From: a virus
Lineage: Duplodnaviria > Heunggongvirae > Uroviricota > Caudoviricetes
IMG/VR virus record: IMGVR_UViG_2778261389_000002
Coordinates: 1-5,373 of that record
Length of the DNA: 5,373 nt
Reading direction: 5' to 3' (one strand)
The notes under the pieces are model-generated. The model worked only from the letters and a program-made list of their open reading frames with translations, was not told where the DNA came from and ran no database searches. Of the stretch, positions 61 to 5,312 are shown in pieces. A program made the position numbers and the translations under genes. The first letter of the stretch is position 1, and the number at the start of each line of letters is the position of its first letter.

Positions 61-630
61 TTACGTGGGTAGGATCACATATGGTGAATATTCGTTGTCT
101 TGTTTAGTAACGGTGTCTGTCATTGTCCTGATGTAGTCTGCGCTTACCACGTTGTTGTATTCTGTTGCGAAGCAGCATAACAACGTCAGAACATGCTCTG
201 TCGTTATTTCGATCCAGTTGATGTTGAAAAACTCATCGCCTTTTTTATCGTGTTCGGAATCGAAGATGCTTTGGTGGAGGATGTATTTGCCGGATTCCTT
301 GCGCGGTAACTTGATCGCTTTCTGGCGTTCCAACTCCTTGTAAATCTGCATTGCTTCAATTAGTACCGGCCTGCCGTTCATGAAGGGATCGCGCAACCTT
401 ACACGCTGGCCAACTCGACCGGTAATAAAGCTGTTTTCCTCTTCCACCAGCACGATAAAACCCTTTTCCTCTTTTTCTCGCAATTCGCGCAGCAGCTGGA
501 GTTCCATATCGCGGCGGCGTTCAGGGTAGCTGGTCCGCTCAGCCATTATCAGCTCGTTGTTGATCCATGCAGCAGTCATTGACGCCGGTTTACCGACGCT
601 CATCGAAACAACGCATATTTTCTTATCCAT
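61..630 (-). CDS. hypothetical protein, 189 aa, gene downstream of ref
   Basis: Part of track ORF 61..777(-). I place the start at ATG 628-630 (MDKKICVV...), preceded by SD AGGGGG (rc of 635-640) at 4-nt spacing; stop TAA at 61-63. The longer upstream extension in the track would translate through a terminator hairpin and the RBS, so it is rejected. No family recognised from the sequence; by P1 gene order it occupies the slot after ref. Confidence 0.55.
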   Translation of the reverse strand: MDKKICVVSMSVGKPASMTAAWINNELIMAERTSYPERRRDMELQLLRELREKEEKGFIVLVEEENSFITGRVGQRVRLRDPFMNGRPVLIEAMQIYKELERQKAIKLPRKESGKYILHQSIFDSEHDKKGDEFFNINWIEITTEHVLTLLCCFATEYNNVVSADYIRTMTDTVTKQDNEYSPYVILPT

Positions 631-642
631 AGCGCCCCCTAT

Positions 643-669
643 AAAAAAGAAAAGCCACCAGCGGCGGCT
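643..669 (-). terminator. intrinsic-terminator-like hairpin in front of the 189-aa ORF
   Basis: Minus strand reads AGCCGCC-GCT-GGTGGCT (7-bp stem with one G-U pair) followed by TTTTCTTTTTT. The T-tract ends about 12 nt upstream of the ATG at 630. Confidence 0.55.
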
Positions 670-819
670 TAGCAATACAACTGAAGGTAGCGCCCGGTAC
701 TCAGACTGTGCCGTCCATGGAATATTTGAAAAGGGATCCATCCGTACCGGGCATGTGATGATTCTGACTGAAGTCACTTGTCAGTTGTCAATTATTTCAG
801 ATTAAAAATAATATATTTA

Positions 820-1376
820 TTAGTGCATGATGTTTGCCATCTCATAGGCGTCAGCCAGCAATTCCATCTCTGACTTGTTCAGCAAGGTGAATTCTTTCTT
901 GCCTCCAACCACACCATCGGCATGAACGGGGACCAGCCAGGGGTATTTTTCTCTTACTTCAGCCGGTGCTGCATGCTAGTGGTGCCATCTACAAAGGGGC
1001 AATTGCTTTTTGTGACAACCCGGCGCGGTACGACCGGAGATATGGTGCAGAGACACCTCTTCAGATATTACTCCATGCATGTAGCAGGCAATGCAGGGGA
1101 GAGTGCCAAGAGCATTGGCGATGGTCCGTTCCTCCGCCGTCGGTGTTCGCCCCTTCAAGCCACGAGATTTTATTTTTACCGCACTTTTCCGCGTTTTGCT
1201 GGCTGGTGGGCGCTCTTTCTGTTTAGCGATACGGCGGTCGATAGAATCCCGCATTTTCTGATATTGCGATTCTCGCCAGGCGGGGTCAGCCAACTTTTCC
1301 CGTTGCCGATCGCTCGTTCTCTGGCTGCCTTCTGCCACTCGCGGCGCTGTTCAAGTTTTTGTTCGATTGTTTTCAT
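820..1376 (-). pseudogene. ref: ref (P1 recombination enhancement function, HNH endonuclease), disrupted by a frameshift and an in-frame TAG
   Basis: Best start ATG 1374-1376 (MKTIEQKLEQRREW...) lies in the frame of track ORF 1176..1481, which stops at 1176. The HNH core (CIAC...LHHI...CRWHH) is in a different frame (track ORF 976..1338) that overlaps it by 163 nt. That frame hits TAG at 976-978 and then stays open for 51 more codons (HAAPAEVREKYPWLVPVHADGVV...ANIMH) to TAA 820-822. ATG to TAA spans about 185 codons, matching the ~186-aa size I recall for P1 Ref. Position about 2 kb from loxP and the C1-operator promoter upstream fit ref. Confidence 0.6.
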
Positions 1377-1381
1377 ATGGC

Positions 1382-1407
1382 AAAAAAAAGGCGGCCTAAT
1401 GGCCGCC
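1382..1407 (-). terminator. intrinsic-terminator-like hairpin between the ref promoter and the ref ATG
   Basis: Minus strand reads GGCGGCC-ATTA-GGCCGCC (perfect 7-bp GC stem) followed by T8. The T-tract ends 5 nt before the ref ATG. It may terminate cre/cra read-through or act as a leader attenuator. Confidence 0.6.
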
Positions 1408-1465
1408 AATGATGTCAAGGAGTGAAGTAATGGCAACGTCTTCGTAGTTGACAAAAACTGCGGCT

Positions 1466-1491
1466 CAATTATAGCAATCAATTAGAGCAAT
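1466..1491 (-). promoter_or_regulatory. ref promoter (-10 TATAAT) overlapped by a C1 operator (Op2-like)
   Basis: Minus strand has a perfect TATAAT (rc of 1468-1473). Immediately upstream, ATTGCTCTAATTGATTG (rc of 1475-1491) matches the C1 operator consensus at 14/17 with the 11-bp core perfect. Ref is known to be C1-repressed in P1. Confidence 0.65.
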
Positions 1492-1517
1492 TAAAGTTAT
1501 TTATCGCGAATCACATT

Positions 1518-1546
1518 TTTTCATTTCAGTACCTGTGTGCTATACT
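1518..1546 (+). promoter_or_regulatory. candidate + strand promoter with extended -10
   Basis: TGcTATACT at 1538-1546 (TG plus TATACT) with a weak -35 TTTTCA at 1518-1523 and 17-nt spacer. It points at the terminator at 1593-1622. Confidence 0.35.
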
Positions 1547-1552
1547 CCTTCT

Positions 1553-1622
1553 TGATTGATTGGATGCGGAATACAAACCCGCTCTTTTGTGCAGCCTGGC
1601 TCCTTGCCAGGCTTTTTTTATT
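1553..1622 (+). ncRNA. candidate small RNA of about 70 nt (promoter to intrinsic terminator)
   Basis: Predicted start about 1553 after the extended -10. A strong + strand terminator follows: AGCCTGGC-TCCTT-GCCAGGCT (8-bp stem, 1593-1613) then TTTTTTTATTT. No plausible ORF or RBS inside. It lies between the cra-position ORF and the ref promoter. Confidence 0.3.
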
Positions 1623-1945: not shown

Positions 1946-1962
1946 CAAAGAATTAGAGCAAT
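1946..1962 (-). promoter_or_regulatory. C1 operator-like site between cre and the cra-position ORF
   Basis: rc of 1946-1962 is ATTGCTCTAATTCTTTG: the 11-bp core ATTGCTCTAAT is perfect, 13/17 overall against the consensus. Confidence 0.45.
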
Positions 1963-5016: not shown

Positions 5017-5020
5017 ATTA

Positions 5021-5053
5021 TGCCCGGCATCAACCGGGCATTCTTCCATTATT
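5021..5053. terminator. bidirectional intrinsic terminator between convergent c1 and the KilAC-like ORF
   Basis: TGCCCGG-CATCAA-CCGGGCA (7-bp stem) is followed by TTCTTCCATTATT on the + strand and by TAATTTATT on the - strand. Confidence 0.55.
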
Positions 5054-5312
5054 CAGCCGCCACCGGTTTTAACAAGCCAGCATCGAGCAGTTTACGCGTC
5101 AACCACTGCTGGCCTTTACCCGTTAATTGAGGCGTCAACCGTATCTGGTAGCCATCTTCATCATCCAGCACCACTTCTTTCACCGTGAAATACCCCGCGT
5201 TGATGTACTGCTGGAACGGTACATTTTTACGGCCTCCGGACGCTATCAGAATGCCGTTCTCCCGTAACCAGGCAAACAGCGCATTTTGTTTAAGTCGGGG
5301 TTTGAGGGCCAA
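5049..5312 (-). CDS. KilAC/ANT-like domain ORF (87 aa), probably a 5'-truncated remnant
   Basis: Track ORF 5049..5312(-). The motif pattern (NALFAWLRENGIL...NVPFQQYINAGYF...TPQLTGKGQQWLTRKLL) resembles the C-terminal KilAC/ANT domain of phage antirepressors, judged by eye. It has no ATG (only TTG at 5310-5312) and no SD, and all three minus frames are closed by stops in 5313-5373. Confidence 0.4.
   Translation of the reverse strand: MALKPRLKQNALFAWLRENGILIASGGRKNVPFQQYINAGYFTVKEVVLDDEDGYQIRLTPQLTGKGQQWLTRKLLDAGLLKPVAAE

What the first reader, a model, noticed from the sequence alone, without database searches (positions are those of the whole stretch)
643..1407. Terminator-like hairpins sit immediately in front of two start codons
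Both ref (hairpin 1382-1407, T8 ending 5 nt before the ATG) and the 189-aa ORF (hairpin 643-669, T-tract then SD then ATG) are preceded on the coding strand by GC-rich stem-loops plus U-tracts. For ref the hairpin lies between its own C1-controlled promoter (-10 at 1468-1473) and the ATG, so the ref transcript must read through it. This suggests attenuation or antitermination-type control, or mRNA 5'-end structure, not simple operon punctuation. The ref hairpin also leaves no room for a conventional SD.
Basis: seen in the sequence. Interest (0 to 1): 0.45.

Follow-up and report, generated by a model that had tools for sequence, protein, structure and literature searches.

The report
Leader terminator hairpins before P1 ref and mat
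Two real terminator-type hairpins sit between promoter and start codon of the phage P1 genes ref and mat; the ref one was proposed as an attenuator in 1988, while the mat one ends a conserved, apparently undescribed structured leader RNA found before every mat homologue, which the reference P1 annotation reads as protein-coding.

Summary
The window is a P1-family phage-plasmid segment (mat–ref–c8–cre–lox–coi–c1), 100% identical over the ref–mat kilobase tested to E. coli plasmid NZ_CP072540.1. Both hairpins are at the stated coordinates on the minus (coding) strand. The ref hairpin is a canonical intrinsic terminator: seven G-C pairs, then U8, then 5 nt, then an AUG with no Shine-Dalgarno. It lies downstream of the C1-operated promoter and is identical to P1, where attenuator control was published in 1988 (title seen only). 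Two other C1-operator lineages keep a leader hairpin of different sequence, and Ref lineages with other operators lack one. The mat hairpin was the more informative. All 12 Mat lineages sampled, down to 31% protein identity, have a GC hairpin and U-tract ending 17–33 nt before the start, followed by a Shine-Dalgarno. In D6 and Shigella the upstream gene is divergent, so the hairpin there is not operon punctuation. It follows a covariation-supported three-way-junction RNA that starts at the transcript 5′ end and has no Rfam match. P1's annotated 250-aa Mat reading through the hairpin is not conserved; the 189-aa ORF is. The likeliest mechanism is partial termination combined with insulation from upstream read-through. 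Whether read-through is regulated is untested. Interest is moderate.

The parts
1475..1491 (-). C1 operator Oref (ATTGCTCTAATTGATTG), adjacent to the P2ref -10 box and overlapping its spacer
   Evidence: Matches the operator consensus with 3 mismatches; chance expectation is 0.01. Annotated as Oref in P1.
1468..1473 (-). -10 hexamer TATAAT of the C1-controlled ref promoter P2ref
   Evidence: Read from the sequence. P1 annotation of P2ref, mapped onto the window.
1377..1461 (-). ref leader of about 85 nt, from the inferred start site to the base before the ATG
   Evidence: Identical to P1 from the operator to the ATG. The start site is inferred from the -10 position.
1390..1407 (-). ref leader terminator hairpin GGCGGCC-AUUA-GGCCGCC
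   Evidence: dG -16.2, z -3.3. The stem is nearly invariant and the loop variable across 49 distinct P1-type leaders.
1382..1389 (-). U8 tract of the ref leader terminator, 5 nt before the ATG; possibly also an SD-independent translation enhancer
   Evidence: Length varies from T7 to T10 among loci. No SD is present. The enhancer role is inference.
820..1376 (-). ref gene, disrupted in this element by a 4-nt deletion near 1310 and a TAG at 976-978
   Evidence: Alignment to P1 ref; ORF list.
812..829 (+). C1 operator Omat, overlapping the ref stop codon
   Evidence: P1 annotation mapped onto the window.
761..791 (-). Pmat/LPmat promoter: -35 TTGACA at 791-786, late -22 box AAGTGACTT at 779-771, -10 CAGAAT at 766-761
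   Evidence: P1 and P7 annotations; sequence.
691..753 (-). Three-way-junction RNA domain at the 5' end of the mat leader: outer stem GCCCGGUAC/GUACCGGGC, a hairpin with loop CUUUUCAAA, and a short GGC/GUC hairpin
   Evidence: Consensus fold. Pair counts: 99.1% of cells paired against 28-46% when slid, with 4 compensatory pairs. Model R1 scores 89 bits here and hits once in 48 kb of P1, 8 nt after the -10 box.
652..670 (-). mat leader terminator-type hairpin AAGCCGCC-GCU-GGUGGCUU
   Evidence: An equivalent hairpin is present in 12 of 12 Mat lineages.
641..651 (-). U-rich tract after the mat hairpin (UUCUUUUUUAU)
635..639 (-). mat Shine-Dalgarno GGGGG; the G-run length varies between loci
   Evidence: Duplex energy -9.3 kcal/mol. 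G3, G4 and G5 variants occur.
61..630 (-). mat coding sequence, 189 aa, start ATG at 630-628
   Evidence: ORF list. Distant homologues and PHROG 1837 begin at this position. The upstream ATG is out of frame in 17 of 33 distinct leaders.

Best explanation
Both hairpins are Rho-independent-terminator modules built into the 5' leaders of ref and mat. They act as leader attenuators that also insulate each gene from upstream transcription.

Shown:
- Each is a GC stem followed by a U-run on the transcribed strand.
- Each lies downstream of the gene's annotated promoter: the C1-operated P2ref, and the C1- and Lpa-controlled Pmat/LPmat.
- Each is also the first same-strand terminator after the preceding co-oriented gene (cre-c8 before ref, ref before mat).
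- This layout is conserved while the hairpin sequences change.

Inferred:
- RNA polymerase from the gene's own promoter, or reading in from upstream, reaches the hairpin after about 55 nt (ref) or about 85 nt (mat).
- Most transcripts end there as short leader RNAs, and the fraction that reads through becomes mRNA.
- This keeps the toxic Ref nuclease and Mat off while C1 represses their promoters, even though cre and c8 are transcribed in lysogens. It also caps their level after induction.
- ref is then translated without an SD, with the U8 run directly before the AUG plausibly serving as the ribosome (S1) landing site.
- For mat, the terminator is the 3' module of a conserved leader of about 115 nt. 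A three-way junction begins at the transcript's 5' end. It probably stabilises the RNA or modulates read-through, and a normal SD follows the U-tract.
For: - Motif quality and rank.
- Promoter and operator positions.
- No other minus-strand terminator motif lies between cre and the ref leader, or between ref and the mat leader. The c8-distal hairpin has its T-run on the other strand.
- ref layout recurs with different hairpin sequences: GGCGGCC/GGCCGCC in P1, GACGGUC/GACCGUC in JK004 and L203-205, GCCGCC/GGCGGC in Pantoea L009. Each follows a C1-type operator and a -10 box.
- Within 49 P1-type ref leaders the stem is nearly invariant while the loop and T-run length vary.
- mat: 12 of 12 lineages have a hairpin and U-tract 17-33 nt before the start, against a background of 0.033. 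In D6 and Shigella the upstream gene is divergent.
- Three-way junction.
- It occurs once in 48 kb of P1, starting 8 nt after the -10 box.
- Ref is deleterious to lysogeny and is C1- and H-NS-repressed (PMC4713147).
- The 1988 paper title says 'attenuator-antiterminator control' of ref.
Against: - No transcript-end or expression data were available, so termination efficiency is unknown.
- Promoter positions come from annotation, and P2ref and Pmat are labelled 'predicted' there.
- A strong terminator after one's own promoter is costly unless read-through is regulated.
- The 1988 title, and the invariant loops of the mat junction, hint at regulated rather than constitutive read-through.
- The mat hairpin alone is not better than shuffled sequence (z = -0.8).
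Confidence: 0.55

Rival explanations
1. Regulated antitermination or a riboregulator. Read-through is switched by a factor: a phage or host protein, a small molecule or an RNA that binds the mat three-way junction, and a separate antiterminator acting on ref. The hairpins would then be expression platforms of true regulatory leaders.
For: - The mat leader has a covariation-supported junction with invariant loop sequences (CUUUUCAAA and GGACGGCAC in class A; CUUUUGAC and GCGCGG in class B), placed directly before a terminator.
- It begins at +1 and is unique in half the P1 genome.
- Other P1 late operons have only 25-40 nt leaders.
- The 1988 title claims evidence for 'attenuator-antiterminator' control.
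- ref mRNA peaks later than several other C1-controlled genes (PMC4713147).
Against: - No conserved alternative pairing competes with either terminator. The junction and the terminator fold as independent modules.
- No leader peptide is conserved.
- There is no Rfam match.
- From my own knowledge, no P1 antiterminator protein is known.
- The ref leader upstream of its hairpin is poorly conserved between lineages, apart from CUCC(Y)UGAC.
Confidence: 0.25
2. Plain operon punctuation. The hairpins simply end the cre-c8 and ref transcripts, and the functional promoters of ref and mat fire at or after them. An example is the predicted P1ref promoter, whose start site would fall inside the hairpin's 5' arm.
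For: - Each hairpin is the first same-strand terminator after the previous gene.
- P1ref (TTGCCA, 16 nt spacer, TG-n-CATCAT at 1436-1409) is found by the scan and is annotated in P1. Its start site would be near 1402, inside the stem.
Against: - Only 21 nt, containing the SD, lie between the mat hairpin and the ATG. The annotated promoter is upstream.
- D6 and Shigella keep the mat hairpin with a divergent upstream gene.
- P1ref is not conserved: its -35 is hit by a common 1-nt deletion, and it is absent in JK004-type leaders.
- C1 control of ref needs P2ref, which lies upstream of the hairpin (PMC4713147).
Confidence: 0.08
3. Mainly post-transcriptional roles. The hairpin and U-run would act as mRNA 5'-UTR elements (stability, or a ribosome standby or S1 site), or the prematurely terminated leaders would themselves be small regulatory RNAs with an Hfq-type 3' end.
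For: - U8 abuts an SD-less AUG.
- The mat junction starts at the RNA 5' end.
- The terminated products would be about 80 nt (ref) and about 110 nt (mat) RNAs with a 5' structure, a single-stranded CU-rich stretch and a terminator tail.
- CUCC(Y)UGAC is the only block shared by P1- and JK004-type ref leaders.
- There is precedent for an sRNA made by early termination of a phage transcript (abstract of PMC7547250, listed).
Against: - There is no target, and no expression or Hfq data.
- In Pantoea L009 the ref hairpin lies about 95 nt from the ATG, so adjacency to the start codon is not conserved.
Confidence: 0.1
4. The mat hairpin is simply coding sequence of a 250-aa Mat, as annotated in the P1 and P7 GenBank records.
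For: In P1 and in this window the frame from the ATG at 741 is open and in phase.
Against: - Among 33 distinct P1-type leaders the upstream ATG is out of frame in 17, in frame but stopped in 1 and absent in 3. This is caused by 1-2 nt indels between the hairpin and the ATG at 630.
- The same conserved nucleotides are read in different frames in L009.
- All distant homologues and PHROG 1837 start at the short position.
Confidence: 0.02

Closest known systems
P1 ref 'attenuator' (Windle, Laufer & Hays 1988, J Bacteriol 170:4881; only the title was seen here)
   Same: It is the same locus. The window is identical to P1 from the C1 operator through the hairpin to the ref ATG. The published title already proposes promoter-operator plus attenuator-antiterminator control.
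   Different: For ref, nothing differs. That paper could not be read here, so what it showed experimentally is unverified. The comparison across lineages, and everything about mat, is additional to it.
Leader-peptide attenuators (trp, pyrBI type)
   Same: An intrinsic terminator sits between the promoter and the first structural gene. The U-run is close to the start codon.
   Different: No conserved leader ORF exists, because T-run and other indels break any frame. No conserved antiterminator or anti-antiterminator hairpins exist.
Riboswitch or protein-binding terminator leaders (aptamer plus expression platform; BglG/RAT, PyrR and TRAP types)
   Same: The mat leader is a conserved, covarying structured domain followed directly by a terminator and then the RBS.
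   Different: The sensor and the terminator do not overlap, and no mutually exclusive pairing is seen. No ligand or binding protein is known. There is no Rfam family.
Promoter-proximal terminators of lambdoid phages (tR' after PR', read through by Q; HK022 put RNA)
   Same: A phage promoter is followed almost at once by a structured RNA and a terminator. A short terminated RNA is the expected by-product (abstract of PMC7547250, listed, for the Stx phage case).
   Different: No Q-, N- or put-like system is known in P1 (my own knowledge). These promoters are themselves repressor- or activator-controlled. Similarity to put was not tested beyond the negative Rfam scans.
5'-terminal stabiliser stem-loops (ompA-type 5' UTR)
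   Same: The mat junction's outer stem begins within a nucleotide or two of the inferred 5' end.
   Different: A plain stabiliser would not need invariant loop sequences or a terminator after it.

Membership tests
Intrinsic (Rho-independent) terminator | GC-rich stem of at least about 5-7 bp with a 3-8 nt loop | tested here: met
   ref has 7 G-C pairs and a 4-nt loop. mat has 8 pairs (5 G-C, 1 G-U) and a 3-nt loop.
Intrinsic (Rho-independent) terminator | U-run immediately 3' of the stem, on the transcribed strand | tested here: met
   ref has U8. mat has UUCUUUUUU. Both are on the minus strand, the strand of cre, c8, ref and mat.
Intrinsic (Rho-independent) terminator | Actually releases transcripts | not testable with these tools
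   This needs in vitro transcription or Term-seq.
P1 ref leader attenuator (1988 description) | Hairpin and U-run between the C1-operated promoter and the ref ATG of a P1-type element | tested here: met
   The window is identical to P1 from operator to ATG.
Leader-peptide attenuator | Conserved short ORF in the leader whose translation governs hairpin choice | tested here: not met
   The JK004 mini-ORF is absent in L203 and differs in L204 and L205. P1-type leaders have no ATG, and frame-breaking indels are common. The AUG in the mat leader gives non-conserved peptides and variable frames.
Leader-peptide attenuator or riboswitch expression platform | Conserved alternative (antiterminator) pairing that excludes the terminator | tested here: not met
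   Folds of leaders truncated before the 3' arm give no shared partner for the 5' arm; in L009, D6 and L188 it is unpaired. A candidate pairing, GUUGCCA with UGGCGGC in ref, is broken by common variants.
Structured cis-regulatory leader RNA (riboswitch-like) | Conserved secondary structure supported by compensatory changes | tested here: met
   This applies to mat only. Class A: 99.1% of cells paired, 4 compensatory pairs, 0 of 500 shuffles reach the score. Class B: 95.5% paired, 7 compensatory pairs, 0 of 500 (that alignment was fitted to the model). The ref leader shows no such domain.
Structured cis-regulatory leader RNA (riboswitch-like) | Constant genomic association with one gene family | tested here: met
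   Model hits occur once per locus and always just upstream of mat.
Any Rfam family | Score at or above the family's gathering threshold | tested here: not met
   The window gives only two sub-threshold hits, on the ref leader and on the c8-distal hairpin. Five other mat loci give none at E up to 1.
HK022 put-type antiterminator RNA | Promoter-proximal two-hairpin RNA that makes polymerase terminator-resistant in cis | tested here: inconclusive
   The topology is compatible: two hairpins closed by an outer stem, starting at +1 and followed by a terminator. No sequence or model comparison with put was possible, and its function is not testable here.

The most novel reading that the evidence does not exclude
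The mat leader is a new class of cis-acting regulatory RNA in P1- and D6-like phage-plasmids of Enterobacterales. Its parts are a 5' three-way junction with invariant loops, an intrinsic terminator and an SD. In this reading the junction binds a phage or host factor, possibly Mat itself, or acts on RNA polymerase as a put-type element does. It would thereby set read-through of its own terminator, adding a third regulatory layer to the known C1 and Lpa control of particle maturation.
Probability: 0.3. Interest if true: 0.65.

Novelty: new member of a known kind. Interest (0 to 1): 0.4.

Why it matters
The ref hairpin is a rediscovery of a hypothesis published in 1988. The comparative data add two points: the leader terminator travels with C1-type operators, and it is absent from Ref genes under other repressors.

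The mat result has practical and conceptual value.
- It indicates that the reference P1 and P7 annotation of Mat (250 aa) starts 61 codons too early and reads through a regulatory RNA.
- It defines two covariance-model-searchable leader RNA families that always precede mat, a gene of unknown biochemical function reported as essential for particle maturation.
- It gives a concrete, mutable element for asking how a gene already known to be under dual C1/Lpa control is further limited.

It also offers a design principle for phage-plasmids. Placing a promoter upstream of the previous gene's terminator makes one hairpin both insulate and attenuate.

Tried and rejected
1. N-terminally extended Ref. 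The ref frame is open upstream to 1481 in the window. T-run length (T7-T10) and a 1-nt indel vary among loci, so this is a coincidence.
2. Conserved leader peptide for ref. JK004 has MTKSLYSPP* ending at the stem base, but it is not conserved in L203-L205 or in P1.
3. Antiterminator pairing GUUGCCA with UGGCGGC in the ref leader. It is broken by common variants and not compensated. No shared alternative structure exists in any lineage.
4. The predicted 'P1ref' promoter as a terminator bypass. It is not conserved.
5. The 250-aa Mat. Rejected.
6. A uORF starting at the AUG in the mat junction. The peptides and frames are not conserved, and class B has no AUG there.
7. One family for the class A and class B mat leaders. 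Neither model finds the other class. Only the topology and a YUUUUSA loop motif are shared, so homology is unproven.
8. Rfam gave nothing.
9. MAFFT alignments of class B were out of register. I replaced them with a hand-anchored alignment and one fitted to a covariance model.
10. Primary papers could not be read: Windle 1988, Lu 1989, Lehnherr 2001 and Lobocka 2004. Open papers gave no transcript-end data.
11. The P1 GenBank record annotates no terminators at all, so their absence at ref and mat carries no information.
12. Mat has no Pfam domain, and its PHROG has unknown function. The protein gives no clue to autoregulation.

Full report
**What the window is.** The 5373-bp window is the immC–lox–cre–c8–ref–mat region of a P1-family (Punavirus) phage-plasmid, in reverse orientation to the P1 map. 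It is about 96% identical to P1. The tested stretch, window 560-1560, is 100% identical to E. coli plasmid NZ_CP072540.1. On the minus strand lie cra (3240-3019), cre (3011-1980), c8 (1929-1618), ref (1376-820) and mat (630-61). On the plus strand lie coi and c1.

**Check of the observation.**
- ref: GGCGGCC-AUUA-GGCCGCC at 1407-1390, U8 at 1389-1382, then GCCAU, then ATG at 1376-1374.
- The ref hairpin folds at -16.2 kcal/mol, z = -3.3 against shuffles. It is the top-ranked terminator motif in the window and in the first 20 kb of P1.
- The TATAAT at 1473-1468 and a C1-operator match at 1491-1475 are confirmed. They correspond to P2ref and Oref in the curated P1 record.
- The anti-SD duplex energy before the ref ATG is -2.4 kcal/mol, against -9.3 for mat and -12.1 for c1. 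ref really has no Shine-Dalgarno.
- mat: AAGCCGCC-GCU-GGUGGCUU at 670-652, UUCUUUUUU at 651-643, GGGGG at 639-635, ATG at 630-628.
- The mat hairpin folds at -11.7 kcal/mol. On its own it is not better than shuffled sequence (z = -0.8), so its significance has to come from comparison.

[quoted passage not shown] I could not read that paper.

New comparative points on ref:
- Among 84 P1-type loci (49 distinct leaders) the stem is nearly invariant. The loop varies (AUUA, AUCA, UAAA) and the T-run ranges from T7 to T10.
- Two diverged lineages keep the same order of parts with unrelated hairpin sequences. The order is a C1-type operator, a -10 box, a leader, a GC hairpin and a U-run.
  - Cronobacter phage JK004 and relatives L203-L205 have GACGGUC-UUCG-GACCGUC followed by U8-U9. 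One U:A pair is changed to U:G.
  - A Pantoea plasmid (L009) has GCCGCC-UCCG-GGCGGC followed by U7.
- Ref genes of D6-type, Klebsiella, Buttiauxella and other Pantoea elements have palindromic operators. They have no leader hairpin, and D6-type refs have a normal SD, AAGAGG.
- The terminator therefore belongs to the C1-operated ref module.
- In L009 the hairpin lies about 95 nt from the ATG. The conserved feature is 'between promoter and gene', not 'touching the start codon'.

**mat: the annotated ORF is too long.** The P1 and P7 GenBank records call Mat as 250 aa, starting at the ATG equivalent to window 741 and reading through the hairpin. That frame is not conserved.
- Indels of 1-2 nt are frequent between the hairpin and the ATG at 630.
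- Among 33 distinct P1-type leaders the upstream ATG is out of frame in 17, in frame and open in 12, in frame but stopped in 1, and absent in 3.
- In L009 the same conserved nucleotides are read in another frame.
- All independently annotated distant homologues (JK004, D6, Leclercia, Shigella) start at the short position. So does position 1 of PHROG 1837.

**mat: hairpin, U-tract and SD before every homologue.** All 12 Mat lineages examined have a GC hairpin and U-tract ending 17-33 nt before the start, followed by an SD. They include P1, JK004, L200, L202, Pantoea L009 and L013, D6, L188, Leclercia, L197, Klebsiella and Buttiauxella. A Shigella plasmid leader, identical to D6 through the hairpin, was inspected separately. 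The lowest protein identity is 31%.
- The background density of such motifs in the same loci is 0.033 per 40-nt window.
- The core GCCGC/GCGGC is kept, while loops range from 3 to 7 nt and are unrelated in sequence.
- In D6 and Shigella the upstream gene is divergent. There the hairpin cannot be the terminator of an upstream co-oriented gene.
- In P1 the annotated dual promoter Pmat/LPmat (-10 at 766-761) is upstream of the hairpin. Only 21 nt, containing the SD, separate the hairpin from the ATG.

**mat: a structured leader.** The hairpin is the 3' module of a conserved leader RNA.

Class A (P1, JK004, L009, L199-L202):
- It has a three-way junction at window 753-691: a 10-bp outer stem, a UGGA/UCCA hairpin with loop CUUUUCAAA, and a short GGC/GYC hairpin.
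- 99.1% of cells are paired, against 28-46% when the partners are slid. Four pairs show compensatory changes, and no shuffle out of 500 reaches the covariation score.
- A covariance model of it scores 89 bits in the window. It hits once in 48 kb of P1, at 2704-2766, which is 8 nt after the -10 box. The junction therefore starts essentially at the RNA 5' end.

Class B (D6, Shigella, L188, Leclercia, Klebsiella, Pantoea L013):
- It has the same topology, with a long outer stem (…UCCC/GGGA…), a loop CUUUUGAC-AAUUUA and a CUGC/GCGG hairpin.
- A model built only from Leclercia and Klebsiella sequences finds the others, once per locus and just upstream of mat. E-values are 7e-11 for L013, 9e-10 for L188, 1e-7 for D6 and Shigella, and 8e-6 for L182 and L186.
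- On that alignment 95.5% of cells are paired, against 36-50% when slid. Seven pairs are compensatory, and 0 of 500 shuffles match. The caveat is that this alignment was fitted to the model.

Further points on the mat leader:
- Neither model detects the other class, so homology between the classes is plausible but unproven.
- Rfam has no match.
- Other P1 late operons have leaders of only 25-40 nt.

**Mechanism.** I looked for the hallmarks of classical attenuation and did not find them.
- No leader peptide is conserved.
- No alternative pairing competes with either terminator. The mat junction and its terminator fold as separate modules.

On the minus strand the only terminator motifs between cre and mat are these two. 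The strong hairpin after c8 (1593-1613) has its T-run on the plus strand. Transcripts from the cre and c8 promoters would therefore run into ref unless stopped by the ref leader hairpin, and ref transcripts would run into mat unless stopped by the mat leader hairpin. From my own knowledge, those promoters are active in lysogens.

My best reading, at confidence 0.55, is that both are partial terminators placed downstream of the next gene's promoter. One hairpin then does two jobs. It insulates a C1-controlled gene from upstream read-through, and it caps that gene's own expression. This fits Ref being harmful to lysogeny and multiply repressed (PMC4713147). The read-through ref mRNA would be translated without an SD, with U8 as a likely S1-binding site; that step is inference.

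Regulated read-through is the main rival, at 0.25. It is favoured by the 1988 title and by the invariant loops of the mat junction. Plain punctuation (0.08), mainly post-transcriptional or sRNA roles (0.10) and coding sequence (0.02) are less likely, for the reasons given under each rival.

**Novelty and verdict.** The ref half is already known. As far as I can tell, the mat half is not described: a leader terminator, a mis-set start codon in the reference annotation, and two model-defined leader RNA families tied to mat. The key mat and genome papers could not be read, so prior description cannot be excluded. It is a new member of a known kind, a leader attenuator or cis-regulatory leader RNA. 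Interest is 0.4, meaning solid and testable but not startling.

Noticed in passing
window 820-1376 (-): ref is a pseudogene in this element. Relative to P1 it has a 4-nt deletion near 1310, giving a frameshift after codon 23, and a CAG-to-TAG change at 976-978 (codon 135). Its promoter, operator and leader hairpin are nevertheless identical to P1.
   Followed up: yes
window 1518-1620 (+): A possible small RNA lies on the opposite strand, between the ref promoter and c8. It has a promoter-like TTTTCA, a 17-nt spacer and TG-n-TATACT (1518-1546), then about 66 nt ending in the strong hairpin 1593-1613 with T7. The terminator overlaps the c8 stop codon. It is present in 189 loci (some contigs were fetched more than once), with 158 copies identical. 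Its only Rfam hit is sub-threshold (SorX, 22.6 bits against a threshold of 46.6).
   Followed up: partly
window 631-741 (-); P1 NC_005856 2716-2826: The P1 and P7 reference records annotate Mat as 250 aa. The first 61 codons cover the structured leader and the terminator and are not conserved as a reading frame.
   Followed up: yes
window 1411-1425 (-); L004 about 1250-1262; L203-L205 about 450-465: CUCC(Y)UGAC is an anti-SD-like block just 5' of, or overlapping, the ref leader stem. It is the only sequence block shared by the P1-type and JK004-type ref leaders, which are otherwise diverged. Its function is unknown.
   Followed up: no
L157 561-703, L156 561-703, L013 2784-2926: In several class B mat leaders the extreme 5' end is complementary to the mat SD: AUCCUC with GGAGGAU in Klebsiella, UCUUCUCC with GGGAGAGA in Leclercia, GCCCC with GGGGU in L013. 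In the minimum-energy folds this closes a large loop around the junction and the terminator. It hints at translational masking, but it is not consistent in D6 or L197.
   Followed up: partly
window 1952-1962 (-): The 11-nt core of a C1 operator (ATTGCTCTAAT) lies between the cre stop codon and the c8 start. It has 4 mismatches to the 17-nt consensus, so the 3-mismatch search does not report it. No operator is annotated at this place in P1.
   Followed up: no
window 5049-5312 (-) and 5020-5041: Downstream of c1 this element carries an Ant-like C-terminal ORF, 85% identical in DNA to the P1 ant1/ant2 region, instead of pacB as in P1. A hairpin between the convergent genes (ATGCCCGG…CCGGGCAT) separates them. 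The first about 78 nt of the window match phage phi467 rather than P1, which suggests mosaic junctions.
   Followed up: no
L010 about 2070-2260: In a Buttiauxella element a C1-operator-like ATTGCTCTTATCC and a -10-like box follow the ref stop codon. The mat homologue is preceded by AAAAGCCGC-CUAGU-GCGGCUUUU. Its leader matches neither the class A nor the class B junction model.
   Followed up: partly
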